From a virus (taxonomy: Duplodnaviria > Caudoviricetes), in the IMG/VR virus record IMGVR_UViG_3300028888_000047, positions 224,001 through 288,000 of that record: 64,000 nt of DNA. One strand, given 5' to 3'. The position numbers were made by a program, and so were the translations under genes. Under the pieces are notes generated by a model. The model was not told the DNA's origin, made no database searches, and worked only from the letters and a program-made list of their open reading frames with translations. Below, piece by piece: positions 38,891-60,774 of the stretch (position 1 is the stretch's first letter; each line of letters begins with the position of its first letter).

Positions 38891-41689
38891 TTAATACTTA
38901 TTTATTTTAAAATATCCATTACCCATATTTTCTATGGATTCTACACTTTTTATCTCTTGAAGTTTTAAATGCTTTTCATATGCAGCACTTATACCTCTAT
39001 CTATATAAATATCTGCTTTAATATTTTGAGGCATTGATGAAGCCAAATTAAATTCAGTTCTAAAAACAGGAGTAGCTATCACCCCATTATTTTTTTCAAA
39101 ACCGCCAAACAATTCTTCATTAACCAAATGCCCATTATTATCATATAACATAGGCGTTATTTCAAAATATGTAGAAACATCGCTTTTTGCAATATCATTG
39201 AAATCAGTCAACTCAATAGAACTTACGTCTTGAGAAAGTAAATAATATTTAAATGTAAATGCTTCATCATCATTTAAATAAAATGTTCCTACTTTTTTAT
39301 AAACGTATACACTATCTATATACTTGACGCCATAACTGTTATCTATTCTACTATAATTGGTTCCATCTTTTTCTATCTCTGTTCCCAAATAGTAAGTAAT
39401 GTCACACATCATTGTGTTAACTACTGTGGAATTATTTAATGCGTCATATTCTCTTTCACAATAGTTAATGGCATCCAATGCGTTATCTTCATTTGCGCTA
39501 TGCCTTATAACCTTTTTATGTGATGAGTCCTTATAGTAAAACTCAATATTTGTTATTATATTACCTATAAAATGACCACCGAAGTTTTTTAACTCTGAAA
39601 CTTCTCCAACTTTATAAAGAATATCCAATGTACACTCATCGTATGTTACATTATAATGAGAAGTATCATCAGTTTTATTTATATCAACAACACTTCTAAA
39701 ATAGCCTGGTAATTCATTGCCTAAATCATCTGTACTAATTTCTTTCCTTCTAATTAAATCTAATTTTGAATCGCAATACCCACTAACAATGTTACAATTT
39801 TTCTTTTCAAACAGATAATATATTTCAACAGTATTATCCAATAAAACAAATTTATCTATACCAAGAATATTTAATTGCTCCTTTGAAGGAATCTTATAAG
39901 TAAACATATATGAATTTGTTGACTCATCATATTCCAAAACATTAGGAATTACAATATTGCCATTTAAAATATAAAAAATTGTCGAGCCATAGTTAAAATA
40001 CCCTTCTAATGCTTGATATGTAAATTCAACGCCATCTTCTTCAATAGTCAAATAATTATCGTCAACAAAATATAATACGTCGTTATATAAAACATATTTT
40101 CCACTTTTTACATTGCAGCCTTCATCATAACAATTAGAGCCTTTAAGAAAATAAATTTTTTCTACGCCATTATCAACTTCAACATATTTTCTTTTACCGT
40201 TAAATATAGCATATTCCAAACTACCATCTTTAAAAACCGGCAATTTATTGTTTTTTCTATATTTTACATCAGCTATTGTATTAGAATCATAGCATAATTC
40301 AACATATTTACCATCAATAACTTCATATGTGTTGCCATTAATACAAACATTTTCTATTTTATTAATTGGTATTTCAGAAGTTATTTTTTCTGGGTTGTAT
40401 ATTATTTTGCCATTTAATGGAGAAAAAGTGTATGACGTTACTCCTTTAACATCAAATTCATTTGTATTATGGCTAATATAATAATCAGTATAATTGAGCC
40501 AATCATCTTTCTTAAAAACATTTTCATAATAATCATTGTATTCATATCCACTTACATTATTACTTTTAATAACATAAGTTTCATCAGAAGCACTCTTTTC
40601 ACCAGTTTCATTGTTTGTTATATATGGTTGATAAATTGTAGTTCCCGCTGATGATGATAATGTATTGTGATAATCTACACCTTCTTCCCATTCATTAGAA
40701 AAAATAGACATTTCTCCAAAGTCATCAATAGAATTTGACAATGAAATTGGTATTGTTATTGATGCTGAATTTGTTACAGTACAATTTATGTCAATTCTTT
40801 CAGCCCAATTTTTTAAATCATTATATAATTCTGCCCCTCCAAGATTAATGTATTTAACACAATCATCATTTTTACAATCTTCAGTTGCTGCTAATTGTCC
40901 ATATTTTTCATACATTTCCTTAAACCAACGATACCATTTTATTGCATTAGAATAAAATAGTGTGGTCATTTTCCACGCATCAACAAATTTTGCCGGAATA
41001 CTATATTGTAATATGTAATTGCTCGTAATCCAATTATATGTTATGTCGCCGCCAAGGGCAATAAATTTATCATCTAAATCCTTATAAAAAGTTTCTTGCC
41101 ATTCATTTCTCACCTTTATTTCCCCATAATAGTACTCTATTGCATCATTGTAACTTTTTTTACCATCTACATTTTTTATAAGTTTATAATAATTTTCAAA
41201 AAAAGAGTACCACTTGTTAAGCGTATAATATGTTATTATCTTAACGGGAACGCCTGTAACGCCACTTACTATAGTTCTTCCACTATATCTTGGGTCTGTA
41301 TCTGATGAAGGGTTAAACAAATCATAATAATCATCAGTTCCTGATTTTGGTATGTTAACATAAATGTCTGTAAATTCAGTAATATTGTCTGCTACTTCAT
41401 TTGGTATTATAATATCACTTGGGATTAATCCATAGTTTCCATTAGGAAAATTAACTGAGTTATTTTCGTTAAATGTCATAAACTCAACTCCATGCTCCAA
41501 TTGTGAAACATTTATATTATACTCTGATGCTCTTTTAACCGCGTCACGATAACTATAAAACTTCTCTTCTACATTTTTACCACAAGAATACAAATATGGT
41601 ATCTTCCAGAAATCAACCAAAGATGGTATAATTCCCGGAAGCCTTGATTTTAAATCATTTAACGATATTTTTTTGTGTATTACTTTCAT
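38891..41689 (-). CDS. Structural protein, baseplate operon
   Basis: 932-aa ORF, coupled. Confidence 0.65.
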   Translation of the reverse strand: MKVIHKKISLNDLKSRLPGIIPSLVDFWKIPYLYSCGKNVEEKFYSYRDAVKRASEYNINVSQLEHGVEFMTFNENNSVNFPNGNYGLIPSDIIIPNEVADNITEFTDIYVNIPKSGTDDYYDLFNPSSDTDPRYSGRTIVSGVTGVPVKIITYYTLNKWYSFFENYYKLIKNVDGKKSYNDAIEYYYGEIKVRNEWQETFYKDLDDKFIALGGDITYNWITSNYILQYSIPAKFVDAWKMTTLFYSNAIKWYRWFKEMYEKYGQLAATEDCKNDDCVKYINLGGAELYNDLKNWAERIDINCTVTNSASITIPISLSNSIDDFGEMSIFSNEWEEGVDYHNTLSSSAGTTIYQPYITNNETGEKSASDETYVIKSNNVSGYEYNDYYENVFKKDDWLNYTDYYISHNTNEFDVKGVTSYTFSPLNGKIIYNPEKITSEIPINKIENVCINGNTYEVIDGKYVELCYDSNTIADVKYRKNNKLPVFKDGSLEYAIFNGKRKYVEVDNGVEKIYFLKGSNCYDEGCNVKSGKYVLYNDVLYFVDDNYLTIEEDGVEFTYQALEGYFNYGSTIFYILNGNIVIPNVLEYDESTNSYMFTYKIPSKEQLNILGIDKFVLLDNTVEIYYLFEKKNCNIVSGYCDSKLDLIRRKEISTDDLGNELPGYFRSVVDINKTDDTSHYNVTYDECTLDILYKVGEVSELKNFGGHFIGNIITNIEFYYKDSSHKKVIRHSANEDNALDAINYCEREYDALNNSTVVNTMMCDITYYLGTEIEKDGTNYSRIDNSYGVKYIDSVYVYKKVGTFYLNDDEAFTFKYYLLSQDVSSIELTDFNDIAKSDVSTYFEITPMLYDNNGHLVNEELFGGFEKNNGVIATPVFRTEFNLASSMPQNIKADIYIDRGISAAYEKHLKLQEIKSVESIENMGNGYFKINKY

Positions 41690-44628
41690 TATTCAGCAAC
41701 TTCAACTATAGATTCATTAGCAAATTTTGTTTCAAATAAATTGAACACCATTACATCATTATCAATTACCAATTCTGAGTTTTCCCTTAAATTTTCAGGT
41801 AAATAATAAACATATTTTCCTGTTTCTTTGTTATATATGATGTTTATAGGTATATAAGTTTGATTATAAATATCATTTAAAGCGAAACCATTCTTTAATT
41901 TTTCAACGTCTTCAGATTTGTGCAAATATAATGGTTTGTGCGTAGCATTATCTCTCGGAAGCATAAATTGTATTGTTTTACCTATGCCAGCGTGATTAAA
42001 CTCCACCTTTAAATATATTGTAGCTTCGCGCATTTTCTTTGTGTATTCTTTAAACATATACATATAAAACCCTTCAGATGATGTGTCTGTATTATATTTG
42101 TCCTTTATAACAAATCTACTACTAAGTCTGCGTTCTTCAGTAAATGCGCAAATGTGTTCTTCACTATTAAATATGTCGCTGGGCTCCCCAAAAACAGAAA
42201 TAAAACTATCCTCACTCATTGGGTTGAATATGTTGTAATAACCTTCCCTATAAGCATTGTCTATGAACTTTTTATAAGCGTGATTAGCGTCAAAAAAAAC
42301 AGTAGATGTGCATAGTAATACTTGTGTCTTGGGGTTTGGCGTACTATAATATGATAATCGCAAAAATGTTTTTTTAAGCTTATTTGCTATGCTTTTTACA
42401 TCACCATCTGTAAAATTAATTAACCCCAGCAAATCTGATGCTGAATGCAAAGATTTAATAGCGTTTTGGCCACACAACTCATCGTGTTGCACATTCTTAT
42501 AAAAATTATTATCAGTCACAAACCAATTTGACATTGCATAATTTGCGGTCTCAATGTTACTAAAATCTCTATCATCTTCTATTACTTTCCAATTTTCAAG
42601 ATTTCTTGTTCTAAAATGTAAATTAAACTGTAACTCTGTAATTGGACAAAACACATAGTTTTCTGGTGTACCACTTTTCCAAACAGGATAATATACATCT
42701 TTTTCCATATCAACAATTTTATTGATTGAGTTATCTTTAATATAATCAACAAAATCATTTTTAACAACATCTTCCCTTAACAAGTTATTTGCAGAATTGT
42801 TTAAAAGAGGAAAGTTAAATGAAATATAATCTTGAATTCTATAAATTTTAATTTTTTTCTCCAACGCATAAAAATCTAGTATTGAATATGGCGCTGGGCT
42901 TGACATAGAATTCATTAATCCATTTTCTACTGATAATAACTTATTGCCAAAAGTGTCATATCTAAGTTTAAATCTAAATGATTTCCAATTGTTAACAACG
43001 ACTCCACAAATATCGCGCCTAACCTCATCCATTTCCTCGTCACTTATTGTATCATTATCAACGTCTGGATAAACAATATAACTACTAGAACCATCTATGT
43101 TAGAGACGAACAAATTAAATGAAACCATTTCATTTATGACTACATATTCACTACCATCATTATCAACTATAACAGGGTATTTAACATTGTTTATTGTCAC
43201 ACCACTTGTTGTTTTAACACTATATTTGTTATTATTAATGCCATATTCAATTTTTATGTTATCTTCTGTTGAAAAATCTGACTTATAATAAATTTTATTA
43301 CTTAATCCTGCTTTTTCATTATTAACATTAAAAAGCATAGTTTCACCATTAACAACGGTGCTTGCGCTATCATAATCGTCATTAAAATAAGTTAAAACAT
43401 ATTCATTATCTGACATATTAACAGTGTCATATAAATGGTCTTGAACATAATATTTTTTTCCATTATATGTTATATATCTTTCAGTGTCAATTTTAACGTA
43501 TTCTATTATTTCAATTGGCGCTGTGCTTTCAGCAATTATGTGATTTCCCTCCGAAATATCAAAATTGTCACTAGAATCAATGATAATTAAAAAACAGCCA
43601 TCGTTTTTTTGACTTATTAAAACATCATTGATTTCTAAATATAAATCATCCTCAGGAATATATATGGCGCTTCCAGTATACTCTAAATCATGATGCTCCT
43701 GATATATAGAATCATTACCATAATTGTTTTTTGCTTCATAGAAATTACCATTTATAGTAACGCCATAACCAATATAAGCCCCACCGTCGTCATAAACTTC
43801 CTCCAAGTAATAGTTTTCGCCTTTGTAATTAACAAAGTGCTTGTAGCCCCCATACATTACGTCATCTGCTTCAATAACTGGTTCTTCTTCCTTAATCAAT
43901 AAAAACTTTTGCTTCCTTTTCCATTGGCTAGGAAAAAAATCCACTACTAATAGATTACCATTATTATCAGTATCAGCGCTAACGTTGCAACCATCTATAA
44001 GCCCTATCAACTCATTTGCATTAATAGGGTCGTGATTTTTGCTTAGTCTAATTTCTGGAAATGTATTTGAAAAATCTACCTCATATACATAGTCTCCTAC
44101 AACTAATTTACCATCTTCTATATTTAAAAACGTTTTAATTATAACTTTTTCGTCATAAAAAGACGCTTTATAAAATGAATGATTAATTAGATACCCACTT
44201 GGAGAATTACCATTACCATCAAAAAAATATGATATATCACCGTTATATTCAATATAATTTTGTTCTACGCCACTTATGATATAATCCCCTTCATCAAAAG
44301 TCTCATATTTTTTGTTGTAAACAATCACATAACTTCCATTTTCATCAGAATATATTGGAAGTTTTAAAGCAGTTTCTATTTTTTTAACAGGCAATTCTAT
44401 TTTTACGCCCAATTTACCTTGTATTTTAACGTTTTCAACGTTTATGGTGCTTTTATCGCTATTTAGAAGATAAGGGCTTTCAATTATAACGCTCTCTCCG
44501 TTTATAAGACCTGTGTTATAATCAGTGTAACCTGAAATATATGATAAATCAGGTGACACATACAAATCAGTGATTGGAAAATCGTTTAATTCAATTTCTT
44601 TATTCGTTTTAACTTTATATTTTAACAT
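41689..44628 (-). CDS. Structural protein, baseplate operon
   Basis: 979-aa ORF, coupled. Confidence 0.65.
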   Translation of the reverse strand: MLKYKVKTNKEIELNDFPITDLYVSPDLSYISGYTDYNTGLINGESVIIESPYLLNSDKSTINVENVKIQGKLGVKIELPVKKIETALKLPIYSDENGSYVIVYNKKYETFDEGDYIISGVEQNYIEYNGDISYFFDGNGNSPSGYLINHSFYKASFYDEKVIIKTFLNIEDGKLVVGDYVYEVDFSNTFPEIRLSKNHDPINANELIGLIDGCNVSADTDNNGNLLVVDFFPSQWKRKQKFLLIKEEEPVIEADDVMYGGYKHFVNYKGENYYLEEVYDDGGAYIGYGVTINGNFYEAKNNYGNDSIYQEHHDLEYTGSAIYIPEDDLYLEINDVLISQKNDGCFLIIIDSSDNFDISEGNHIIAESTAPIEIIEYVKIDTERYITYNGKKYYVQDHLYDTVNMSDNEYVLTYFNDDYDSASTVVNGETMLFNVNNEKAGLSNKIYYKSDFSTEDNIKIEYGINNNKYSVKTTSGVTINNVKYPVIVDNDGSEYVVINEMVSFNLFVSNIDGSSSYIVYPDVDNDTISDEEMDEVRRDICGVVVNNWKSFRFKLRYDTFGNKLLSVENGLMNSMSSPAPYSILDFYALEKKIKIYRIQDYISFNFPLLNNSANNLLREDVVKNDFVDYIKDNSINKIVDMEKDVYYPVWKSGTPENYVFCPITELQFNLHFRTRNLENWKVIEDDRDFSNIETANYAMSNWFVTDNNFYKNVQHDELCGQNAIKSLHSASDLLGLINFTDGDVKSIANKLKKTFLRLSYYSTPNPKTQVLLCTSTVFFDANHAYKKFIDNAYREGYYNIFNPMSEDSFISVFGEPSDIFNSEEHICAFTEERRLSSRFVIKDKYNTDTSSEGFYMYMFKEYTKKMREATIYLKVEFNHAGIGKTIQFMLPRDNATHKPLYLHKSEDVEKLKNGFALNDIYNQTYIPINIIYNKETGKYVYYLPENLRENSELVIDNDVMVFNLFETKFANESIVEVAE

Positions 44629-47489
44629 GGGTCAAATTCATTTTCGTTATAATTGATTTTATTTGAAGGGCTGAAATTATGATAATTGTTTATATCCTCA
44701 CCATCCGGAACATAATCAAAAGCATCATCGCTAACATCTCCCAAATGTTCTTTTTGAGGGTCTTGCCTTCTCAAGAAGAAATTAATGCTTCTTTTAATGT
44801 AAAACGCTCCATTTGTAAATGGATATATGTTTTCATTTTCTTCTATCCCATTTGAAACAACATTTCTCCACCCATATCTACAAAAGCCATCCAATATAAC
44901 GTTTGCGTAATCGGGAATATTTTCAGGCTTTTTAAGCAATACATAATCATTAACATTAGCAAAATCAAGTCCTGAGCTATTAACAATTTCGCACGTAAAT
45001 TTGTTTAAATCAATTGGCTCAATAACAACAACATTATACGCTTTATTTGTAGAACGATTATATAGCATTAATTTCTCATTTTTTGAAAAACTATTTTTTA
45101 AAACTGTTTTTATTTCATTGCTGCTTATTGAATATATTTCATATTCTATTGCTTTTTCAGTGTTTAATGTGTTTGAAACTGTTTTGATAGGAATTCTATA
45201 ATGAGGTTGATAATAATAACCTTCTTTAAAAGAAAGCATATCTTTATAATCGTCAGGTACTGAATGATTTAATGGACCATTTTCAAATGCCTCAAATGGG
45301 TCTACCTCATAATCATAATTTATAACCGTTAATTTATTTTCATCTACTTGTATTTCATCGTGACACAAGCGACCAATACCATAATCTCCTGTGGCAATAT
45401 GACAACTTCTAAAAAATGTTAATGACTTTGAAGTTGGATTTATGTTAGATAGTTCCCTTTGAACGGTGTTAAATCTATGCATAGACATTTGTAATGACTG
45501 TTCATCACAATCTATAGGAGAATAACAACAAATATCACCGTAATATTCATAATCTTTGCCTATTTCAACTTCCCCCAAATCTTTTGTTTCTCCATATGTT
45601 AAATCTCTAACATCATATAAAGTAGTTGATTGTCCTATGTTATACCATTCTCTATAATAATCAGATAGCACAAAACTGTCATGTATTTTACCAAAACAAT
45701 GAGAATATTCTACCTCTTCACTACCTAAATCAAATTCTTCATCTATCCCATACCATTTTTTATACCCTTTGTTGTTTTTTACAATTGTCAGATATAAATC
45801 ACTTAATGGTCTTCCAAGGTTATCCTTTAAAAATGAAGTATCAAAATCATCAGTAAATACTATTTCAACAGAATCATCACCATACGCAGTGTTGGCAAAT
45901 CCCAATTTGCCAATGTGACTTTCAAAATTACTTCTCCAATCTTTTGGGTCAGAAAATCTCTCTATTAAATCAGAACCTTCTTTATATAAGGTATAATCAT
46001 TAACTTCTTCGTTTTTAAACTTGAAATTTGGCAACCTTGAAAATTTTCTTACATAATATTTACATTCCACGCCATTCACCACCCTTCTTATATGTATATC
46101 TTGCGCATTTGGGTCAACATTACACCTATTGCTTTCACATATTGGATAATAAATACCGTTATCATCTTGATAAACACCACCACTGTCAAATCTATCGCCT
46201 TCAGTTTCAACCCATTCATTTGATATATCAAAAGATGCTTTATGCACTTGGAATATAAAGTTGTCAACAACGTTTAAAACCTGAACAGAGTCATAAACTA
46301 AATCATCTGATTTGTATATATTAACGGTGTCGCCAACCATTAAACCATGTTGGCAAATTGTATATATTGTTAATACAGACTCTCCATTATCATCAACAGT
46401 ATATTCATCAAACATATAAACCTTTAAAGATGTATTACCACTGCTATCTATTCTGAAAAATGGAAAGTCATTACAATTATTCATTTTTACAACGTTTTTA
46501 CTTGGGTAAGTAATACAATAATTCCAATTGTTTTCAACCCTTCTTCTATATTTATTGTATTTTGGCGTAAAAGAATATAAATCTCTGCCGGGATACATAT
46601 CTATAAATTCGCCAACTTCTTTATTATTTATAGTTCTGTTTATATATTTCCCATAATCATCAAGCACTCCATCCAATTTAACCGAAGCGTTTATAAACGG
46701 ATTTTTAAATCCATACCATCCATTGCTATTTATTAATTTGTTTTCAACACAATCTTCAAAACTCATTATATCTATATTTTGGTATAAATGTAATGGAACT
46801 TGGTCTTGCCTAAAACCACTTCCAAGCTCATATCTAACAAAATTTTCCGAAACAATAACACCATTACTGTCACGCATATAATCATCTATTGTGTTGAAAT
46901 CATTGCTAACATATTTATGTTTACCTTCTGTGATACCGATAGTACCTGCATGCACCGGTATGTCATAGCCTTGACCATATACATCGGAAAATTTACCAAT
47001 TTTCTTTGTAGAATTTATATCATTGTAGTTTACCGCTTTAAAAACTTTATTTCTTATAATGTGATTATTAAAAATGTCTATTCCACAATGATAATCAAAA
47101 CCAAATCTTTCACTGGATAATTGTGTATCTCTAATTGCTTGATATTGATTCCAAACGAAATTTGTGTCCTTACCTATTATATTATTGTCAATATAACCAC
47201 TTTCGAAATTAAGGCATTTAACATCATCAGTTCCTTCATTTTTAACTATTTCAGTATATGGATTAAATAAAATATTACTGCAAAATGGATTTATATTAAC
47301 AACCAATCTAAATTTATTACTTTTTTTACGCTCATCAATATAAACATCATAAGCATCAATCGTACCATCAATAGAATCTTCCGGTAATAATTTCTCATTA
47401 CCGGTCAAATTAAGTGTTAATGATGAGTTTTCGTTAACTGACTTTTTATTAATTGAACTATTAAGTAATATTTTTTCCGTGACTTCCAT
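44622..47489 (-). CDS. Structural protein, baseplate operon
   Basis: 955-aa ORF, coupled. Confidence 0.65.
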   Translation of the reverse strand: MEVTEKILLNSSINKKSVNENSSLTLNLTGNEKLLPEDSIDGTIDAYDVYIDERKKSNKFRLVVNINPFCSNILFNPYTEIVKNEGTDDVKCLNFESGYIDNNIIGKDTNFVWNQYQAIRDTQLSSERFGFDYHCGIDIFNNHIIRNKVFKAVNYNDINSTKKIGKFSDVYGQGYDIPVHAGTIGITEGKHKYVSNDFNTIDDYMRDSNGVIVSENFVRYELGSGFRQDQVPLHLYQNIDIMSFEDCVENKLINSNGWYGFKNPFINASVKLDGVLDDYGKYINRTINNKEVGEFIDMYPGRDLYSFTPKYNKYRRRVENNWNYCITYPSKNVVKMNNCNDFPFFRIDSSGNTSLKVYMFDEYTVDDNGESVLTIYTICQHGLMVGDTVNIYKSDDLVYDSVQVLNVVDNFIFQVHKASFDISNEWVETEGDRFDSGGVYQDDNGIYYPICESNRCNVDPNAQDIHIRRVVNGVECKYYVRKFSRLPNFKFKNEEVNDYTLYKEGSDLIERFSDPKDWRSNFESHIGKLGFANTAYGDDSVEIVFTDDFDTSFLKDNLGRPLSDLYLTIVKNNKGYKKWYGIDEEFDLGSEEVEYSHCFGKIHDSFVLSDYYREWYNIGQSTTLYDVRDLTYGETKDLGEVEIGKDYEYYGDICCYSPIDCDEQSLQMSMHRFNTVQRELSNINPTSKSLTFFRSCHIATGDYGIGRLCHDEIQVDENKLTVINYDYEVDPFEAFENGPLNHSVPDDYKDMLSFKEGYYYQPHYRIPIKTVSNTLNTEKAIEYEIYSISSNEIKTVLKNSFSKNEKLMLYNRSTNKAYNVVVIEPIDLNKFTCEIVNSSGLDFANVNDYVLLKKPENIPDYANVILDGFCRYGWRNVVSNGIEENENIYPFTNGAFYIKRSINFFLRRQDPQKEHLGDVSDDAFDYVPDGEDINNYHNFSPSNKINYNENEFDPC

Positions 47490-47494
47490 TTTAA

Positions 47495-50428
47495 CTATTT
47501 TTTATCGCATTTAGAGATGAACTGTTCATAGAACTTTTCAATTGCTGTACTACCTTGATTTAAGCCAAAATAAAAATAAAATGAATTATTATACAAAGGA
47601 AAAGCGTATTCTTGATTACCTGGATTATAATCTACAGCGACTTTATCATTCGTCGCGTCGTACCCATAAAAATGCCTTTCAAATTTTAATTCATTGTCTA
47701 AACTTATAGAATCTAAATTAGAGCCAAACCTAAAATCCAAATAATCTTTATTTCTATAATCTTTTGTTTTATTATTTTCCGTTCCTCCTGACGTATAATT
47801 TTGTGCGATATATTCCATTCTGCCATCAAAATTATTTGGGTATAAAAATTTTAAATCATATTTCTTATATCCGGTTAATTCGTTTGGGATTTCACCAATC
47901 AATTTTTTATAATTCATAGATGCAAATTGAGAACGAGAATCGACATCTTCAATTTCTCTTTTTGTAATCAAACCATCCATAAGCAACGTATCTGAATAAT
48001 CTGACCAATCAAGCGTAAAGTTATATGTTACATTACAATCAAGAGTTGTACCCAATTCACATATTCTTTCAACATTTGGAATTGTTTTTACATCACTTTG
48101 TGGTAATATTAGTTTAACTTCCTTTTCTATATCAAATATCCATATCTTATCTTTAATGTTTTGTGTTTTATAATACATTCCAAAAAACAAACCAGACCCC
48201 AAATAATACTTATACCTATCATCATTACTATCAACACCGTGTTCTTGCCAATAGTCTCCCCAATTCATTCCGTTAAATGACACTTTTGTATCCCCTTGAT
48301 AAGTGGTATTCCCACTATAAGATGGCTTATATGCGCCAATTGACGGAATATTAGATGTTGTCGTAGGTAAGTTGTACATTACTTTTGGAACGCCATCAAT
48401 ATCATCGTCCTTTAAACTACCTAACAATATTATATCAGTAGAAAAAAGTCTTATGTATTCACTTTCGTCTTTCTCCTCGATGTTTTTTAGCTTAGTACCA
48501 TAACTATAATAAAAAACATCGTCATCATATTTTGTTTTTTTATTTTTTATTATTCCATCATAAAACTCTTTACTACCATATGGCATTTTAGTGAATTTAT
48601 ATTTATAGCCATTTTTTTCATTGGTATAAACTGTATTTTCGGTTGGAATTCTTAAATTACAATTTGAATATATGTATGACCCACCGTTAAAAAGCATCAT
48701 TTTATTTGCAGTATCTTTAACTCTCTTACACTCACAAAATAAACTATCACGTTCTGCTTTCCCATTTTCAGTGTTTGCTTTGGTTTTTAAGTGCCAAAAC
48801 CACGAAGGAAAATAAAGACATCCGTTTAACCAATCATTATAAAAATCAAGACCTATACCTTCCTGTTCTTCCAAAACCTTTTCCACAGCAGCATCAATAC
48901 TTACAATATATGAATGACTTTTTAAAAAATTCCAAAACCCAACAAGAGAATACCAAAAATTTTCATCGCCATAGATTTTATTACGAACCAAATCTTGTAA
49001 TGCATGAAATGCGGGTATTGATAAATTTAAGTTTATTTTATTAAAAGGTAATAAATTATTTTTTTTCGCACCACTTTTGTTTACCCCCTTTATTGCTAGA
49101 TAATTTTCAATATAATCATATATATTTCTCTGTAATCTTGGAATATAACCTTTTACAGAATATACTTTATTCCAATATAAATCTCTAAAACAATCTTCAG
49201 GGGTATTCGTTCCAAACTCATAATAATCGTAATTTTCTTCACAATTTATTACTTTTTTATCAACCACCGGCTTGGTATACTTATTTATTAAGTCCGGATT
49301 ATTCGGTACAAGATACCTTGCCTTATGCGAACTTAAATTGTTAGCACCATTTTCATCAAGTGTTATTCTAAACCTAACTCTTGCCCTTGTCGGTATTCCT
49401 TTTGAAATGTCATTTGTTGGAACTATATTTCCCTTTTCATCGGTTCCAACATAATCAAGATTCATCGGTATCTGATAACACCATACACCATCACTATCAA
49501 TCAACTGATTGCCCTTAATGGTATATTCTTCAACATCACCATCTACTGTTTTTCTAATCATTTCAATGTTACCCTTACTTACAGTAAGTTGGCTTGCTTC
49601 CCCAACACTAGCATCAGGTATACAATCATGACTAATGTAACTTGAGCCGTCATCAGTTATAACGGACCCCAAGAACACACAAGTGGTTTCAAACTTATAT
49701 TCTAACGTTATATCCTTTCTTGTAATAGCTATTTCGTTAGAATCTTTATCTCCCCACAATGGATATACAGTAACAGATGTGCTCTGATTAAACAACTGAG
49801 GTAAATCGTCCAAATTGGTACTTTTCTTAAACTGCGTTGGACTTTCAAATAAATCAAGCGAATATCCTTTGTAAATGAAATCTCTTGGCTCTTGAGATAA
49901 AATTCCAATATCTGACAAATCAACGTCAACATGAAGCATTTGTTCTCCTGTAGGAACGCCAAATATCATATAATCTCCTGCGTTATTTGTTACTGTTGTA
50001 TATTTGTAATATTTGTCATATATTTCAATAACCGAATCATTGTCAAGAACAAGTTGTTTTTTTGGAAATGAACCAACCGCTTGGTGGCATTCAAATTCTT
50101 TATAATTTGGCAACAAATTATATTTTACGTTTCTACTATCAGTATCATTAACAAAGTTATATGGATATACTGTTCTTATATATTGATTTAATTTATCTGC
50201 CTCAGATAAAGGTATAAATACAGAAACCTTTGCGTTTGGAATTCCAAACGCATCATTAGCAAGAACTCTACCAACTATAACACCATAGTCGGCAGAGTGA
50301 AGCTTGTATAAATTCTCCTGGCTTAATTCAAGAGAAAGTATTTCATATATGTCAACATCTTGTTTAAGACTTACGTTTAAGTATTGGTCAGCCCCAATGT
50401 TGGCTTTAATTGTGTAACTATTATTCAT
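47495..50428 (-). CDS. Structural protein with carboxypeptidase-regulatory-like beta domain
   Basis: VIVGRVLAN..GIPNAKVSV..TTVTNNAGDYMIFGVPTG. Confidence 0.7.
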   Translation of the reverse strand: MNNSYTIKANIGADQYLNVSLKQDVDIYEILSLELSQENLYKLHSADYGVIVGRVLANDAFGIPNAKVSVFIPLSEADKLNQYIRTVYPYNFVNDTDSRNVKYNLLPNYKEFECHQAVGSFPKKQLVLDNDSVIEIYDKYYKYTTVTNNAGDYMIFGVPTGEQMLHVDVDLSDIGILSQEPRDFIYKGYSLDLFESPTQFKKSTNLDDLPQLFNQSTSVTVYPLWGDKDSNEIAITRKDITLEYKFETTCVFLGSVITDDGSSYISHDCIPDASVGEASQLTVSKGNIEMIRKTVDGDVEEYTIKGNQLIDSDGVWCYQIPMNLDYVGTDEKGNIVPTNDISKGIPTRARVRFRITLDENGANNLSSHKARYLVPNNPDLINKYTKPVVDKKVINCEENYDYYEFGTNTPEDCFRDLYWNKVYSVKGYIPRLQRNIYDYIENYLAIKGVNKSGAKKNNLLPFNKINLNLSIPAFHALQDLVRNKIYGDENFWYSLVGFWNFLKSHSYIVSIDAAVEKVLEEQEGIGLDFYNDWLNGCLYFPSWFWHLKTKANTENGKAERDSLFCECKRVKDTANKMMLFNGGSYIYSNCNLRIPTENTVYTNEKNGYKYKFTKMPYGSKEFYDGIIKNKKTKYDDDVFYYSYGTKLKNIEEKDESEYIRLFSTDIILLGSLKDDDIDGVPKVMYNLPTTTSNIPSIGAYKPSYSGNTTYQGDTKVSFNGMNWGDYWQEHGVDSNDDRYKYYLGSGLFFGMYYKTQNIKDKIWIFDIEKEVKLILPQSDVKTIPNVERICELGTTLDCNVTYNFTLDWSDYSDTLLMDGLITKREIEDVDSRSQFASMNYKKLIGEIPNELTGYKKYDLKFLYPNNFDGRMEYIAQNYTSGGTENNKTKDYRNKDYLDFRFGSNLDSISLDNELKFERHFYGYDATNDKVAVDYNPGNQEYAFPLYNNSFYFYFGLNQGSTAIEKFYEQFISKCDKK

Positions 50429-50431
50429 TCT

Positions 50432-52426
50432 TTATATCAACTTTGTTCTAACTTGAATATCACTGGATGGGTTATATATTTCAAAACAACTATTATAATC
50501 ACTTAATAAAACGTGGTCAATAGAGTCCAAATCTATTTTAAATGAGTCAGCATTACTATCCACTTTAAATATTCCGCCTTCTTTTGACTCAGAATAAGGG
50601 CATTTATCTGAACTATATGCTCCATTATAAATGTTATATACTTCAAAATTAATCATTGATATTACTCCATCTATTAGCATTATTTCCTTTTCTAAATCGC
50701 CCACGAATATATTTTCTCCCATATCGTGTCTATCTATAGACATATATTCTTTAATCTTTTCAATAACATTAGTAATAACGGTAGGCACATCATAGGTTTT
50801 ACTTACAAATATATCAACTGAAAAACCCAAATTGTATATTTTTCCGCTCCTGCATTCTATATAATCGCCAAGAGTTTTATAATGCGACATATATTCTTCT
50901 ATATTTTCGACCAATGTTTCAGGTAATGCTTTTACAAGTTTTCCATTGGCGTTCATACCAAGCATACTAATTACTATTTTGTTATTTTCTTCAATTGCAG
51001 AAACCCTATACGGCGCTCCATATTTAGGGGGCATCATCATCAGCCTATATTTATAGTCCTTTACAGTAATACATCTTTCTTGAGAAGCATTATTGTATTT
51101 TGTAAGATATTTTATTTCTTCTGTTGATGGTGCGTCTTTTCCTGCAACAGCAGTACTTGTATTTGTAACGCTTAATGAATTTAAAATACTTCCCCTAATG
51201 TTGGCAACAGATGTATCGGTCGTAGCGTTTTGCTTAAATTCAGCAACTGTAAGCGAAATAGAATTAATCGCTCCAACTCCTATGTTGCTTGACACACCTC
51301 CACCTACTCTATATAACACAAACATTGTCCAACCTTCTCTAGGTAACACACCAAGCATATCATTATTAATAATATTTGACATTATTCTTTCAGAAAACTT
51401 GGTTTTAACTTTTGGTAATTCATCATATAAAACGCCACTACCAAAAATAAGTTTTATATATCCATTATCTGTATATTCAGTGATAAATTTTTGTGTTATT
51501 GGCTTCCACTTACCTCTATAATATCTTGTGGTTCTTATTGAGCTTCCATTGTCATCTGTTTCGGTATAATCATCATACATTTCTGGGTTGAAATAATCCT
51601 GTAATATGCCATTATCTATTTTTACTTCGGACATAAACCTATATTGTTCAGCCAAAGAATCCACCTCAAAAAATCTAAATGTATCAGCAGCTTCTGATGT
51701 CATTTTATATTGTTCCGAATCAACATAAAACTCAGAAATTTCTGGGTCATTCTGAAAATTAGATGTTTCTTTAAAAATTACAGATTCAATATTCATAACA
51801 TTCTTTTCAGGCAGTACAATTTCCATAAAAGGCTTTAAATCTTGTTTTAATATCACCTTTTTATATATTCTTGTGCTACCATTTACAGCTAATGTGCTTT
51901 TTGTTACCGTGTATGCAGTTACAATACCATTAGTGTTTCTAAGTGGAACAAACGTTCTATTAGAATATCCATTTTTATTAAATTGTTCACTAAAATCAAC
52001 ATCTTCATATAATTGAAAATTAAGATTTCCGGCCGATACAACAGTACTTTTCTTAACTATTGGGGCATAATTCCAATCTGGAGAAGATATGTTACCAGTA
52101 GTAGTATCTCCTACCGGTAACACACAGCTTAATTCAATCTCACACATACTTGCCTTTGGACCAGGAACCTTTAAACCATTTGTACGGGCAATATTTAGAA
52201 CGGTGCTTTTTAACTTAGCACTATTCACGTTTGTCTCTTGATACATACGGTCAATATGGTATGATAAGTTATCTCCAACAGAAGATACCAAATCAATAAA
52301 CCAAGACCCAACACTTGAGTCGTTAAAACTATCTGATAGTTCAGGATAATACTTATTACTGAACTTTATTAACTCAGATTTATAATCATCAAAATTTCTA
52401 GCTAAAAAATTTATTCCTTTTTCCAT
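50432..52426 (-). CDS. Baseplate wedge protein (T4 gp6/J-like)
   Basis: ARNFDDYK..LSYHID, YRVGGGVSSN, AGKDAPSTEEIK, QERCITVKDY. Confidence 0.88.
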   Translation of the reverse strand: MEKGINFLARNFDDYKSELIKFSNKYYPELSDSFNDSSVGSWFIDLVSSVGDNLSYHIDRMYQETNVNSAKLKSTVLNIARTNGLKVPGPKASMCEIELSCVLPVGDTTTGNISSPDWNYAPIVKKSTVVSAGNLNFQLYEDVDFSEQFNKNGYSNRTFVPLRNTNGIVTAYTVTKSTLAVNGSTRIYKKVILKQDLKPFMEIVLPEKNVMNIESVIFKETSNFQNDPEISEFYVDSEQYKMTSEAADTFRFFEVDSLAEQYRFMSEVKIDNGILQDYFNPEMYDDYTETDDNGSSIRTTRYYRGKWKPITQKFITEYTDNGYIKLIFGSGVLYDELPKVKTKFSERIMSNIINNDMLGVLPREGWTMFVLYRVGGGVSSNIGVGAINSISLTVAEFKQNATTDTSVANIRGSILNSLSVTNTSTAVAGKDAPSTEEIKYLTKYNNASQERCITVKDYKYRLMMMPPKYGAPYRVSAIEENNKIVISMLGMNANGKLVKALPETLVENIEEYMSHYKTLGDYIECRSGKIYNLGFSVDIFVSKTYDVPTVITNVIEKIKEYMSIDRHDMGENIFVGDLEKEIMLIDGVISMINFEVYNIYNGAYSSDKCPYSESKEGGIFKVDSNADSFKIDLDSIDHVLLSDYNSCFEIYNPSSDIQVRTKLI

Positions 52427-56070: not shown

Positions 56071-57498
56071 TTATGGTGCATTTTTCTGCCTATTCATGAT
56101 ATTTACTATTTTATCTTGGATGTCTTTATCCCTATCTTTTTTAAAGGCTAACATACCGTTAAATTCATCAACATTATCAGTACTAATTATACAAGTACCA
56201 TTGTTAAATTCAACGTTATCAAAGACTTTTCCTGCCTTTCCTGCTCTATTTTTCAATATCGCAATAGTGGCCTTACTTTCTTCAATATCTTCAACTGTTC
56301 TTGCAATTGACATTACGATGTGAGCAATTTGAATCTTTTTGAAAGAGCCACCCGCTTTATCCATTGTAACTACTTCAACATTAAGTGAGTCCTTTGTGCC
56401 TTGAACTGGAATCCAAATACCAATGTTAAGTTCTCCTGCCATTGATTCGAACTTTCTCATTGTTTTTCCTTCCTTTTCCCATTTATCATCACTTGAATCA
56501 CCTTTGCAAAGAAGACATTCAAAATAGTCAACAATAACAAGGTCAGGACTAAAGCCCATATTTTTAAGTTTTATTATTAGCCTTTTTATATCATCAGCGG
56601 TTTTTTCTCCACTTGGTAATCTAATAATTCTAAGATTTCTTTGAAGGGTTTCCCTATCCTTATAATGCTCCAAAGTATATTTAACCTTATCAATATATTC
56701 AGGTTTTGATAAGTCTTTTGCTTCCACACCGGTTATTCTACCAAAATGCTTTCTTTGAATTTGTTTTACCCTGTCTTCAAAAACTATTTGTAACACTTTA
56801 TACCCGTCATTATTATTCTGTGGAGAACGATAAGTTGCTGCAAATGAAGCTATTGCTGTTGTTAGGCTCGTCTTACCGAATGAGCTGCTTCCAACTATAA
56901 CACCCAATTCTCCCTTTCCAAGTCCGCCTTCAAGCGTTTCATCTATTTTACCTATTCCTGTCGGTATTGCTATTCTATAGTCTTCTGACAATGTTTCTGC
57001 TTCATTTTCAAAAACACTGTGCCCTAAATCTTCGCTTGTTCCTTGCGTAAGAGCTTTATTGAGTATTTCAACGCATTTATCATAGTTTTCAATATCACCT
57101 TTACCTGCGATTTTAATAATCTCATTTGCGACGCGAATCATGTTTTGTTGTTTAAAGAATTTTTCAGATAATTCTCTTACAAAATTAGAATCTTCAGATG
57201 ACATTTGATGTATTTTATCAACTACAGCATCATAATACTCTTTTTCTGTAGAATTATGCGATTTGCTTGCTAAAACGAACTTTAGTGTATCATAATTGGC
57301 AGGTTTTCCTTCTTTTCTATAATATTCCCTCATAACCCCAACCAATGTTTTAAGGTTTGGGTCTGTAAAAAGGTTTTGGTCAATGATGTCGCACAAATCT
57401 TTGAAAAATTCTTTATCTTCAATAAATTCATGTACGAGTTTATACTGAAAGTCTTCTCCTAGAAAACCCAATTTATTTGTTTGTGCGTTCTTTGCCAT
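56071..57498 (-). CDS. Replicative DnaB-like helicase
   Basis: IPTGIGKIDETLEGGLGKGELG..GKT, IVDYFE, KNRAG. Confidence 0.92.
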   Translation of the reverse strand: MAKNAQTNKLGFLGEDFQYKLVHEFIEDKEFFKDLCDIIDQNLFTDPNLKTLVGVMREYYRKEGKPANYDTLKFVLASKSHNSTEKEYYDAVVDKIHQMSSEDSNFVRELSEKFFKQQNMIRVANEIIKIAGKGDIENYDKCVEILNKALTQGTSEDLGHSVFENEAETLSEDYRIAIPTGIGKIDETLEGGLGKGELGVIVGSSSFGKTSLTTAIASFAATYRSPQNNNDGYKVLQIVFEDRVKQIQRKHFGRITGVEAKDLSKPEYIDKVKYTLEHYKDRETLQRNLRIIRLPSGEKTADDIKRLIIKLKNMGFSPDLVIVDYFECLLCKGDSSDDKWEKEGKTMRKFESMAGELNIGIWIPVQGTKDSLNVEVVTMDKAGGSFKKIQIAHIVMSIARTVEDIEESKATIAILKNRAGKAGKVFDNVEFNNGTCIISTDNVDEFNGMLAFKKDRDKDIQDKIVNIMNRQKNAP

Positions 57499-58575: not shown

Positions 58576-58607
58576 CAAATATACAAAACATTTTTTTAAA
58601 AAACAAA
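58576..58607 (-). promoter_or_regulatory. Bacteroidota-type promoter
   Basis: TTTG-N20-TATATTTG. Confidence 0.8.
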
Positions 58608-58609
58608 TT

Positions 58610-59773
58610 TTATGTTATTTTTTTAGCATATTCTTTTTCTTTTAAAATAATGCGCTCGTAAGGACCAAGTAAATTGCCAAATTTTGACTCTTCTAACATA
58701 TCCGTCATTTCATTTTCATAAATGATTTCATATATATTCTTAACATCCCTATCTTCAATATTCATTGGGGCATATAACTCTTCTTTTAAGCCTTCCAAAG
58801 CTTCATCGGTTAATAATGGTTCTGACAAATCTATGATTTTTTTATTTATTTCATAAATGTCTTTGCCCTGTATGCCATCTGTAACGCGATTAACGATATT
58901 TTCAAGCGATTTGAGAGGCTTTTTTTTATCAGCCTTTCTCTCTTCCAACAAAGACTTGGAACGTTCTACAACGGCTTTTAATGACGTTTTTTCATTTTTC
59001 ATTTCGGGAAACAATTTTAATAATGTTTGCTCGCCTAAGCCCTTTATTCCTTTTATGTTATCAGAAGCATCACCGCATAATATTTTTTTAACTAAAACAT
59101 TTTCGTGAGTTATTCCAAGCTCTTCAACTGAATTCTTTGGTGTTATAAACTTTTTTAACGTCGGTATATATTGGCAAACCTCGTCATTTATTAACTGTGT
59201 TAAATCTCTATCGCCACTTACAATTACAACCCTTTCATTTGGCTTCTTATTTTTAACATAATAAGCAATAAGGTCATCACCTTCAACATCATCGTATATA
59301 AATTGTCTTATGAAGAGATTTTCAAGAATATCTTGTATTATTCCTCTTTGTCTTTGAAATGATTCATCATCAGTTTCAATTCGTTTAACTTCATATTTTT
59401 TGTTCTTACTATTTTTCAAAATATTTTTTACAAAATTATTTATTTTTTTATCATAATCAGAAACGCCGGATGTTAATTCATAATGCTTATCTCTGTTTGC
59501 CTTATAATCCTTATAATAATTCCACCTGAGACTTCCTGAATTGAAGCCATCCCAACAAACTATACAAAAATCAAAATCCTTTTTCTGTAATATTTGCCCC
59601 AATATTCTCAAGAATAAAAATATTGCTCCATATTCTTGACCCTTTGAATTCATTCTCTTATCAACCAATGACATCTTTAGTAATGAATTGCCATCTACAC
59701 ATAATGTATAAATTAATTTTTCATTGCTAACATTGTTTGCTTCTGCTCTATTCTTTTTAACTACTTGTTTCAT
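58610..59773 (-). CDS. 5'-3' exonuclease/flap endonuclease (T4 RNase H-like)
   Basis: VDGNSLL, YKANR, VEGDDLIA, SGDRDLTQL, GDASDNIKGIKGLG. Confidence 0.93.
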   Translation of the reverse strand: MKQVVKKNRAEANNVSNEKLIYTLCVDGNSLLKMSLVDKRMNSKGQEYGAIFLFLRILGQILQKKDFDFCIVCWDGFNSGSLRWNYYKDYKANRDKHYELTSGVSDYDKKINNFVKNILKNSKNKKYEVKRIETDDESFQRQRGIIQDILENLFIRQFIYDDVEGDDLIAYYVKNKKPNERVVIVSGDRDLTQLINDEVCQYIPTLKKFITPKNSVEELGITHENVLVKKILCGDASDNIKGIKGLGEQTLLKLFPEMKNEKTSLKAVVERSKSLLEERKADKKKPLKSLENIVNRVTDGIQGKDIYEINKKIIDLSEPLLTDEALEGLKEELYAPMNIEDRDVKNIYEIIYENEMTDMLEESKFGNLLGPYERIILKEKEYAKKIT

Positions 59774-60030
59774 TTAAATTTATATGTTTTTTCCGGTGTT
59801 ATAATTTCCCAATACCAATCAATATTAGGGTCATACTTATAATTTGGCTTTGCGTCATAATATACCTTTTTTAACTCTCTATACAATACCAACGCTGCAT
59901 CCTCTGGAGTGTATGCTATAGTTTTTATTGCTTCCCATTCTCTGAAGGTAAGTTCTTTTCTTACAAAAAAACTTTTTTTCTCTATTCCTACTTTAGAATA
60001 ATCGTATATCTCATATTTGTATTTACCCAT
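59770..60030 (-). CDS. Hypothetical protein
   Basis: Likely start MGKYKYEIYDYSK. Confidence 0.65.
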   Translation of the reverse strand: MGKYKYEIYDYSKVGIEKKSFFVRKELTFREWEAIKTIAYTPEDAALVLYRELKKVYYDAKPNYKYDPNIDWYWEIITPEKTYKFK

Positions 60031-60301
60031 TGTTATAAACATTTAAAAAATCTTCTCTATTGCTAACATATGTTGGAGTATATATTGGGCCTGTATATGT
60101 TGACAAACTTGTTAATATACTTCTATCAAGTTCTACCGCAATTTGTTCAGAAAGAATTGCTGTTAATTCGCCTTCAACGGAAATATTGTTAAATGCTGTA
60201 ATATCATTAGCTAATTCAGTTGACCATACTACTTTACACACCTTTGGCTTACATATTTCAATTTTTGAATAATCGTAACTTTCAAATTTATACTTTCCCA
60301 T
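60023..60301 (-). CDS. Small protein containing a gp23-like major capsid protein segment
   Basis: KVVWSTELANDITAFNNISVEGELTAILSEQIAVELDRSIL. Confidence 0.7.
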   Translation of the reverse strand: MGKYKFESYDYSKIEICKPKVCKVVWSTELANDITAFNNISVEGELTAILSEQIAVELDRSILTSLSTYTGPIYTPTYVSNREDFLNVYNNG

Positions 60302-60671
60302 AATTTACAACTTTTACATTTAACCCTTTTTCTTCTGCAATTTTAATCATATGCTCAGTTCCATGAGAACTTCCATCCCAAAAAGCAATTAAGCCATCAG
60401 CAAGTTCTGCCATTTGTTCATTCCTTCTAAATCCAGCTGATTTTCCATGCTTTTTCCAATCAGCAGGATAAACTTCCAAGTCCAAATCTTCATCAGAAGC
60501 ATATTTCTCACCCAATTGGTCAGCACCACGTGCTCCACCACTAACAATAATAACGTTATGTGTTTTTTTCTTTTCTCGTAGAACTTTATTACAAGTCTCT
60601 TTTAATAACTTATAATTGCTAAACCCTCTTGAACCTGCAATAATAACCTTAAAATTTTCTTTTTTACCCAT
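60288..60671 (-). CDS. SLOG superfamily (YspA/DUF2493-like) protein
   Basis: IIAGSRGF, VSGGARGAD, AGFRRNEQMA, FWDGSSHGT. Confidence 0.88.
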   Translation of the reverse strand: MGKKENFKVIIAGSRGFSNYKLLKETCNKVLREKKKTHNVIIVSGGARGADQLGEKYASDEDLDLEVYPADWKKHGKSAGFRRNEQMAELADGLIAFWDGSSHGTEHMIKIAEEKGLNVKVVNYGKV

Positions 60672-60686
60672 AAAATTGCATTTTTA

Positions 60687-60718
60687 CAAATATACAAAAA
60701 AATGTTAAAAAAAACAAA
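60687..60718 (-). promoter_or_regulatory. Bacteroidota-type promoter
   Basis: TTTG-N20-TATATTTG. Confidence 0.8.
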
Positions 60719-60774
60719 AAAAAGAGGCAAGAAAAAATCTAACCTCTTATTAAAAAATATTTGTAAAAAATAAA

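What the first reader, a model, noticed from the sequence alone, without database searches (positions are those of the whole stretch)
60023..60301. Mini-protein carrying a major-capsid-protein segment in a non-structural, host-promoter operon
Seen: residues ~23-66, KVVWSTELANDITAFNNISVEGELTAILSEQIAVELDRSIL, in an intact 92-aa ORF coupled to its neighbours, downstream of a Bacteroidota promoter (60687) and a SLOG gene. Established (from memory): T4-type gp23 has the conserved stretch LKA.(Y/W)S.ELAQDL.A.HG.DA.AELS.IL..EI..EI(N/D)RE, and capsid proteins trigger defences such as CapRel-SJ46 and Lit. Inference: a captured capsid fragment expressed early, perhaps a decoy or inhibitor of capsid-sensing immunity, an assembly modulator, or a poison of competing phages.
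Basis: partly seen in the sequence, partly recalled or inferred. Interest (0 to 1): 0.78.

Follow-up and report, generated by a model that had tools for sequence, protein, structure and literature searches.

The report
Stand-alone capsid-fragment mini-gene, jumbo phage
A 317-kb Bacteroidota phage keeps a small, conserved gene whose core is a 52-residue excerpt of its lineage's own major capsid protein, joined to a short tag shared with the next gene. The origin is clear, but what it does (capsid mimic in a conflict, or assembly helper) is untested.

Summary
Window 60023..60301(-) is an intact 92-codon gene. Residues 18-69 are a true piece of a Gp23-type major capsid protein (MCP): Pfam Gp23 31.7 bits against a cut-off of 24.4, and profile-profile E 4.5e-22 to the MCPs of related jumbo phages. 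It maps to T4 gp23 residues 257-319, which hold a P-domain strand, the short acidic helix and the spine helix.

It is a chimera. Residues 1-22 are a tag shared with the next gene (E 4.7e-10), and the tail is family-specific.

The gene is not decaying. At least 16 intact relatives of 64-101 aa sit in the same place (SLOG, mini, small gene, 5'-3' exonuclease). dN/dS is 0.13-0.56. The spine helix ELTAILSEQIA is identical to the MCP's despite many synonymous changes.

Five complete relatives that have the MCP lack the mini-gene, so it is an accessory gene.

This contig has no full-length MCP, most likely because the roughly 17-kb head block was not assembled.

Function is unknown. I favour a mimic of unassembled MCP used in a host or phage conflict (about 0.35), with an assembly or folding role as the main rival.

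Earlier notes of this scan report similar capsid-fragment mini-genes in other huge phages. I found no publication describing them.

The parts
60023..60301 (-). Mini-gene, 92 aa (P0001); the stop codon is at 60023..60025.
   Evidence: There are 15 homologues of 64-101 aa at 49-87% identity.
60236..60301 (-). Residues 1-22: an N-terminal tag (MGKYKFESYDYSKIEI...) shared with the downstream gene.
   Evidence: hhalign of A1 against A3 gives 96.6% probability, E 4.7e-10, residues 1-22 on 1-22. The tag is invariant within the family (M1 K3 K5 E7 Y9 D10 Y11 S12). AF2 models it as unstructured in both proteins.
60095..60250 (-). Residues 18-69: the MCP-derived core, comprising a P-domain strand, the short helix region and the spine helix.
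   Evidence: It is equivalent to T4 gp23 257-319.
60104..60175 (-). Residues 43-66: the spine helix E.ELTAILSEQIA.E.DR..IL, the most conserved part of the protein.
   Evidence: The columns are invariant. AF2 places a helix at 40-68. The amino acids match those of the MCPs while third codon positions differ.
60026..60094 (-). Residues 70-92: a family-specific tail (GP..TPTY.SN.EDFLN.YNN).
   Evidence: There is no significant match to the MCP. This half is swapped by recombination between close relatives.
60288..60671 (-). SLOG (YAcAr) gene, the first gene of the unit. Its end overlaps the mini start by 14 nt.
   Evidence: PF10686 E 1.5e-16 and phrog_289 E 6e-34.
59770..60030 (-). Downstream 86-aa gene ('down', P0002 read from its second ATG), which carries the same N-terminal tag.
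   Evidence: AF2 gives pLDDT 75.8 and a beta-alpha-alpha-beta-beta fold. It matches no Pfam, PHROG, PADLOC or PDB fold.
58610..59773 (-). 5'-3' exonuclease (FEN/RNase H type), the last gene of the unit.
   Evidence: PF02739 E 4e-28.
60687..60718 (-). Bacteroidota-type promoter-like site, TTTG-N20-TATATTTG.
   Evidence: The motif occurs 6 times against 0.22 expected.
60715..60748 (-). Terminator-like hairpin plus U-run that closes the upstream gp13-like neck gene.
   Evidence: -12.9 kcal/mol, z -4.2.

Best explanation
What it is. The gene is an exapted, chimeric accessory mini-gene. Its core (residues 18-69) was copied from the Gp23-type major capsid protein of this jumbo-phage clade. It is joined to a roughly 20-residue N-terminal tag also carried by the next gene, and to a private tail. 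It is transcribed with a SLOG enzyme and a flap exonuclease from a host-type promoter, apart from the head genes.

Shown:
- The origin from the MCP and the chimeric build.
- Conserved synteny and purifying selection.
- The strongest constraint lies on a spine helix that stays letter-for-letter like the MCP's.
- The distribution is that of an accessory gene.
- The second half of the gene is a recombination mosaic.

Inferred mechanism. The protein does not fold alone. It displays the MCP spine-helix surface and so acts as a mimic of unassembled capsid protein, competing for a partner that normally recognises that surface. Because the gene is accessory, fast-evolving and sits with SLOG in a unit that looks early, I favour a conflict role. 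The most likely version is occupying or blunting a host factor that senses newly made capsid protein.
For: Origin from the MCP.

Origin within the clade: identity is 57-64% to the MCPs of related 215-380-kb phages, against 39-47% to others.

Chimera.

Conservation and synteny: 16 family members and 8 sequenced loci share the same gene order.

Selection:
- dN/dS is 0.13-0.56, against 0.06-0.25 for the neighbours.
- The helix ELTAILSEQIA is identical in the mini-genes and the MCPs, with third-position identity of only 3-13 of about 16 codons. This points to selection on the protein, not recent gene conversion.

Accessory status: it is absent from five complete or near-complete relatives that have nearly the same MCP segment.

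Mosaic: between the window and L102/L103 the flanking genes are almost identical (pS 0.03-0.07), yet the mini-gene differs (pN 0.07-0.10) because its second half is exchanged.

No fold on its own: AF2 gives pLDDT 55.7, with only the helix formed.

Transcription unit: a host-type promoter and a separate unit. The same motif precedes the Rad50-like and DnaB units.

Background: capsid proteins are frequent triggers of bacterial defences (PMC13728456).
Against: - No function was tested, and expression timing is inferred from a promoter motif only.
- A fragment that carries a sensed epitope could trigger a sensor rather than block it.
- No defence is known to read this part of a Gp23-type MCP, and PADLOC gave nothing.
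- In T4 the copied segment holds head-length and chaperonin-bypass sites (PMC9546572).
- A distant stand-alone strand-helix gene sits between portal and prohead protease in another phage.
- The last two points favour an assembly role instead.
Confidence: 0.35

Rival explanations
1. Capsid assembly or folding modulator. The mini-protein binds the phage's own MCP, its scaffold or a chaperone through the copied strand and spine helix. It would tune folding, capsomer contacts or head size, much as T4 core proteins gp67/gp68 influence head length.
For: - The copied segment equals gp23 257-319.
- In T4 that segment contains the head-length mutations A268V, A275T, D285V and D287V/N, and the gp31-bypass sites G292, V306 and V307 (PMC9546572).
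- The helix is held identical to the MCP's.
- A distant stand-alone strand-helix gene (P0070) lies between T4-type portal and S77 protease, where T4 has genes 67/68.
- The phage encodes its own Hsp70.
Against: - The gene is absent from five complete relatives whose MCP segment is nearly identical.
- It lies far from the head genes, in a unit with SLOG and an exonuclease behind a host-type promoter.
- It evolves faster than its neighbours.
- T4 gp67/gp68 show no sequence similarity to it.
Confidence: 0.25
2. Exapted for an unrelated job. The helix and strands are only a structural scaffold. The shared N-terminal tag directs both small proteins to a common partner, for example the SLOG enzyme, the exonuclease or a replication factor.
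For: - The tag is as conserved as the helix and is shared with a neighbour of unrelated body.
- All four genes are translationally coupled.
- A terminal [FY]K[FY] motif recurs on other stand-alone strand-helix proteins: 5 of 46 against 0.19 expected.
Against: A mere scaffold helix would be free to drift. Here every helix position matches the MCP after long divergence.
Confidence: 0.2
3. Dominant-negative poison of the capsid assembly of co-infecting related phages (inter-phage competition).
For: The gene is accessory, fast-evolving and mosaic. The fragment covers an inter-capsomer contact region (PMC9546572).
Against: The MCP segment is almost invariant across the whole clade, so the phage's own capsid should be as sensitive as a rival's.
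Confidence: 0.08
4. By-product of recombination or homing-endonuclease traffic next to the capsid gene, with little or no function.
For: DUF723/HNH-type endonuclease-like genes flank the MCP in many relatives. Their KYDYSKV motif resembles the tag.
Against: - The ORF is intact in every relative, at a fixed position, with dN/dS below 1 and invariant columns throughout.
- The resemblance to DUF723 is not significant.
Confidence: 0.07

Closest known systems
T4 gp23 major capsid protein, residues 257-319 (Pfam PF07068; PDB 6uzc, 5vf3)
   Same: The sequences are homologous over the P-domain strand, the short acidic helix region and the spine helix.
   Different: Only about 52 of more than 500 residues are present. 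There is no N-arm, insertion domain, A-domain or P-domain sheet. The gene stands alone, carries foreign ends and lies outside the head module.
600-690-aa Gp23-type MCPs of related 215-380-kb jumbo phages (IMG/VR loci L016-L094)
   Same: They are the closest source, at 57-64% identity over residues 17-66, with an identical ELTAILSEQIA helix.
   Different: They are full-length capsid proteins next to the portal. Genomes that carry them (G002-G005, G007) lack the mini-gene.
T4 prohead core proteins gp67/gp68
   Same: They are small proteins that affect head length. A distant strand-helix mini-gene (P0070) occupies their genomic position in another phage.
   Different: They show no sequence similarity to the mini family. 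The gene studied here is not in a head module.
Gol peptide of T4 gp23 (Lit/EF-Tu exclusion) and capsid-sensing defences such as CapRelSJ46
   Same: In these systems a piece of, or the whole, capsid protein is what a defence reads (PMC13728456).
   Different: Gol is gp23 93-122 (own knowledge), a different segment. No sensor for the 257-319 region is known, and no phage-encoded capsid decoy turned up in the papers I searched.

Membership tests
Gp23 major capsid protein family (PF07068) | Profile match above the curated cut-off. | tested here: met
   31.7 bits against 24.4, but covering only 48 of 376 profile positions.
Gp23 major capsid protein family (PF07068) | A complete HK97-type fold: N-arm, E-loop/insertion domain, P-domain sheet and A-domain. 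| tested here: not met
   The protein has 92 residues. Only 18-69 align to the MCPs, and AF2 shows one long helix and no folded core.
Gp23 major capsid protein family (PF07068) | Encoded in the head module with portal, protease and scaffold. | tested here: not met
   It lies between a SLOG gene and a 5'-3' exonuclease in all relatives.
T4 prohead core proteins gp67/gp68 | Sequence similarity to gp67 or gp68. | tested here: not met
   hhalign probability is 0.2% or less, and BLASTP finds nothing.
Gol-type capsid peptide (Lit trigger) | Corresponds to gp23 residues 93-122. | tested here: not met
   It maps to gp23 257-319. The Gol coordinates are from my own knowledge.
DUF723 DNA-binding module of homing endonucleases | Significant similarity of the N-terminal tag to DUF723. 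| tested here: inconclusive
   A YDYSK[IV] hexapeptide is shared with four repeats of genome ORF 96827..97963. hhalign gives only 3-8% probability, and Pfam finds no DUF723 hit in the mini-protein.
Known anti-phage defence or anti-defence proteins | Match to a PADLOC model. | tested here: not met
   There are no hits for the mini-protein or its neighbour. The SLOG gene gives only weak ShosA/PsyrA-like hits.

The most novel reading that the evidence does not exclude
Huge T4-like phages carry a so far undescribed class of tagged 'mini-capsid' genes. Each presents one conserved piece of the major capsid protein: strand plus spine helix here, an N-terminal piece in the 171-aa gene, and an insertion-domain piece in the 370-aa gene. 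These would act as mimics of unassembled capsid protein that blunt capsid-sensing host immunity.
Probability: 0.2. Interest if true: 0.85.

Novelty: new variant of a known kind. Interest (0 to 1): 0.6.

Why it matters
Capsid proteins are among the most common triggers of bacterial immunity, yet I found no description of a phage counter-measure built from a capsid fragment.

This family offers a clean, small, conserved test object. It is a 92-residue protein whose only strongly constrained surface is the capsid spine helix. If it binds a host sensor, it would define a new anti-defence principle. If it binds the capsid protein, scaffold or a chaperone, it would give a handle on how very large T4-type heads are folded and sized.

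The wider set of stand-alone strand-helix proteins, together with earlier notes of this scan, suggests that the phenomenon is general in huge phages.

Tried and rejected
- Complex prediction of the mini-protein with a related full-length MCP (A2 with A1) gave no verdict: score 0.01 against a mark of 0.32. This is evidence neither for nor against binding.
- AF2 on the mini-protein alone gave a low-confidence model (pLDDT 55.7), so I ran no fold search on it.
- A Foldseek PDB search with the model of the downstream protein gave nothing at E 0.001 or better.
- Searches for the phage's own MCP found only the mini-gene, a 171-aa N-terminal-like gene and an insertion-domain-like gene. The searches were Pfam Gp23 and phrog_138 over the genome, tblastn and phmmer with two MCPs, an HMM of 7 MCPs run with --max on all six-frame ORFs, and hhalign of 139 ORFs.
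- T4-type portal and S77 protease were not found.
- The 277.6-kb ENA contig that carries a mini-gene could not be searched as a whole.
- The idea that residues 1-17 and 70-92 also derive from the MCP is not supported. BLAST extends to residue 1 in some MCPs, but a forced hhalign extension has zero confidence outside 18-69, and the N-terminus matches the neighbouring gene instead.
- A link of the tag to DUF723 is not significant.
- A link to T4 gp67/gp68 is rejected.
- PADLOC, Rfam and tRNA scans of the relevant stretches were empty.
- Literature searches for capsid-fragment decoys or truncated capsid genes found nothing specific.

Full report
**Observation**

Several independent tests confirm the capsid match:
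- Pfam Gp23 (PF07068) matches residues 23-70 at 31.7 bits, above the curated 24.4 (E 1.4e-7).
- PHROG 138 'major head protein' matches at E 1.9e-7.
- A profile of the family hits solved T4 gp23 (6uzc, 5vf3) at E about 5e-7, aligning mini residues 12-70 with gp23 257-319.
- The residue identities in that alignment agree with positions named in PMC9546572 (A268, A275, D285, D287, G292, V306, V307), so the register is sound.

**Genome context**

The window is bases 224001-288000 of a 317,464-bp linear virus record, 32% G+C, which CheckV rates 95% complete.

The unit that holds the mini-gene starts at a Bacteroidota-type promoter-like site, TTTG-N20-TATATTTG, at 60687..60718(-). The extended motif TTGTATATTTG occurs six times in the window against 0.22 expected. 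A terminator-like hairpin lies just upstream of it and closes a T4 gp13-like neck gene (the gp13 label comes).

The unit encodes four genes joined by overlapping stop and start codons:
- a SLOG/YAcAr protein (PF10686, E 1.5e-16);
- the mini-gene;
- an 86-aa protein of no known family;
- a 5'-3' exonuclease.

A further promoter-like site follows at 58576. That the unit is transcribed early is an inference from the promoter type and from its company of replication genes.

**A real gene family**

The 5.8-billion-protein collection holds 15 relatives of 64-101 aa at 49-87% identity. Invariant columns lie in the N-terminus, the helix and the tail. In every locus with readable context the order is gp13-like neck, a variable gene, SLOG, the mini-gene, a small tagged gene, exonuclease, then DnaB.

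Pairwise dN/dS is 0.13-0.56. This indicates purifying selection, but looser than on the SLOG gene and the exonuclease (about 0.06-0.25).

Between the window and its closest relatives (L102, L103) the flanking genes are nearly identical, but the second half of the mini-gene has been exchanged for the version seen in L010. The gene is therefore a recombination mosaic.

**Build**

- Core: profile-profile comparison with 17 MCPs of related phages gives 99.5% probability, E 4.5e-22, for residues 18-69 only.
- Tag: residues 1-22 instead match the N-terminus of the downstream gene family (96.6%, E 4.7e-10).
- Tail: it has no significant relative.
- Structure: AF2 folds only a long helix (40-68) and a short one (82-91) at low confidence. 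In the neighbour, which otherwise folds at pLDDT 75.8, the tag is also disordered.

The protein is therefore a tag, a capsid excerpt and a tail, and probably needs a partner to fold.

**Source of the excerpt**

An IMG/VR scan returned one further mini-gene (L015) and 79 full-length 600-690-aa Gp23-type MCPs from contigs of up to 380 kb. These MCPs are 57-64% identical to the mini-gene over residues 17-66. MCPs of cultured T4-like phages reach only 39-47%.

Across this clade the MCP segment is almost invariant. The helix ELTAILSEQIA..E.DR is identical in the mini-genes and the MCPs, although synonymous sites differ freely among all of them. Protein-level selection therefore keeps the mini-helix like the capsid helix. 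The strand and short-helix parts have drifted, and in one subgroup they are partly deleted.

**Why this contig has no capsid gene**

The mini-gene is the only Gp23 match in the record. T4-type portal and prohead protease are also missing.

Five complete or near-complete relatives have portal and MCP within about 10 kb of each other. In G002, a 17-kb plus-strand block of 14 genes runs from upstream of the portal to just past the MCP. None of those genes has a counterpart in our contig, apart from the MCP's insertion domain. The adjoining minus-strand block is collinear with our 198967..214910. In G003 the MCP is followed by the homologue of our gene 316187..316675, which lies 800 bp from our right contig end.

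The last 295 bp of our contig are 97% identical to the terminal 295 bp of another MCP-bearing contig, and both contigs stop at the same base. The missing 5% (about 17 kb) therefore most likely is the head block, lost at an assembly break. This is an inference.

**Distribution**

The five relatives that carry the MCP have neither the mini-gene nor its tagged neighbour. The pair is therefore an accessory acquisition of one sub-lineage.

**Wider picture**

The family profile finds 660 proteins at E 0.001 or better among 1.84 billion representatives. Many are MCPs or broken MCP calls. Several, however, are complete 70-150-aa proteins with the same strand-helix core and unrelated ends. Three that I checked are internal genes on their contigs. 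One of them (P0070) lies between portal and prohead protease.

A terminal [FY]K[FY] motif is over-represented among these short proteins: 5 of 46 against 0.19 expected. It resembles KYKF in our tag.

Within our genome two other genes carry MCP pieces:
- A 171-aa gene (genome 211345..211860) matches the MCP N-terminal region (E 2e-7). It belongs to a family with 45 other database clusters.
- A 370-aa gene matches the MCP insertion domain (97% probability).

Earlier notes of this scan describe comparable capsid-fragment mini-genes in other huge phages. I treat these as leads only, not as evidence.

**Mechanism**

What is shown is origin, build, conservation, and a constraint focused on the spine helix. 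What follows is inference.

I favour a mimic of unassembled capsid protein used in a conflict, most likely with a host factor that senses new capsid protein. The reasons are that the gene is accessory, mosaic and faster-evolving than its neighbours, and that it sits with a SLOG gene behind a host-type promoter. Capsid proteins are common defence triggers (PMC13728456).

The main rival is an assembly or folding role. In T4 the copied segment carries the head-length and chaperonin-bypass mutations (PMC9546572), one distant relative sits in a head module, and the phage has its own Hsp70.

A complex prediction with a related MCP gave no verdict.

**Novelty**

The gene is not a capsid protein, because it fails the fold and context criteria. 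It is also not related to gp67/gp68 or to the Gol region. I found no publication on conserved stand-alone capsid-fragment genes. I rate it a new variant of a known kind, with moderate-to-high interest because the function is open and directly testable.

Noticed in passing
G000:C1 whole record; contig ends L106 and L107: The 317-kb record has no MCP, T4-type portal or S77 protease, whereas complete relatives have all of these in a roughly 17-kb block. Genes that flank that block in relatives lie at or near our contig ends and at genome 198.5-199 kb. The head module was probably not assembled.
   Followed up: yes
G000:C1:317170-317464 (L106:3170-3464): The last 295 bp are 97% identical to the terminal 295 bp of IMG/VR contig 3300028888_000316 (L028:11746-12040), whose proteins are otherwise only 40-60% like ours. 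Both contigs end at the same base, and the stretch holds an inverted repeat. No Rfam family or tRNA matches it. It may be a mobile or highly conserved element that breaks assemblies.
   Followed up: partly
G000:C1:211345-211860 (L006:1345-1860, minus strand; outside the window): A 171-aa gene whose residues 36-116 match the N-terminal region of Gp23-type MCPs (own HMM, E 2e-7), with a faint spine-helix-like DIEAEFCALLS at 147-161. It belongs to a family with 45 other database clusters, on contigs of up to 412 kb. The aligned block of relative G002 has no gene at this position.
   Followed up: partly
G000:C1:174580-175692 (L004:4580-5692, minus strand; outside the window): A 370-aa gene of no Pfam or PHROG family shares the insertion domain of the clade's MCPs (hhalign 97%, 28-36% identity over about 135 residues).
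   Followed up: partly
G000:C1:93136-94845 and 96827-97963 (L105): Homing-endonuclease-like genes: one has DUF723, NUMOD4, HNH_3 and NUMOD1, the other DUF4379/DUF723 repeats with the motif KYDYSKV. In many relatives their homologues lie directly beside the MCP gene, in varying number and orientation.
   Followed up: partly
window 56071..57498 compared with L100:4177-6705, L103:5255-7777 and L104:5573-8089: The DnaB-type helicase is 475 aa here but 838-842 aa, with LAGLIDADG hits, in three relatives. This suggests an intein that this genome lacks. In L100 the NrdD gene is split into two ORFs with a 99-aa ORF between them.
   Followed up: no
window 5707, 24977, 31069, 49996, 58576, 60687: TTGTATATTTG occurs six times against 0.22 expected. 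The minus-strand copies precede the SLOG unit, the DnaB unit and the Rad50/SbcC-like gene, as expected for a host-type promoter class used for replication genes.
   Followed up: partly
proteins P0070, P0085, P0088, P0091, P0092, P0187, P0198, P0204 (other phages): These are complete 84-141-aa stand-alone proteins with the same MCP strand-plus-spine-helix core but unrelated ends. Several carry a terminal [FY]K[FY] motif. P0085 and P0187 also carry other short MCP motifs (NPFNFTP, DLISVQPL). P0070 sits between portal and prohead protease.
   Followed up: partly
G000:C1:192644-194539, 182959-184245 and 175751-177115: The phage encodes an Hsp70/DnaK (E 2e-239), a tyrosyl-tRNA synthetase and a TelA-like protein.
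   Followed up: no
window 38891..50428: Four tandem paralogous ORFs of 932-979 aa, followed by a gp6-like baseplate wedge gene (50432..52426). They have no family hits and are probably tail or baseplate proteins.
   Followed up: no
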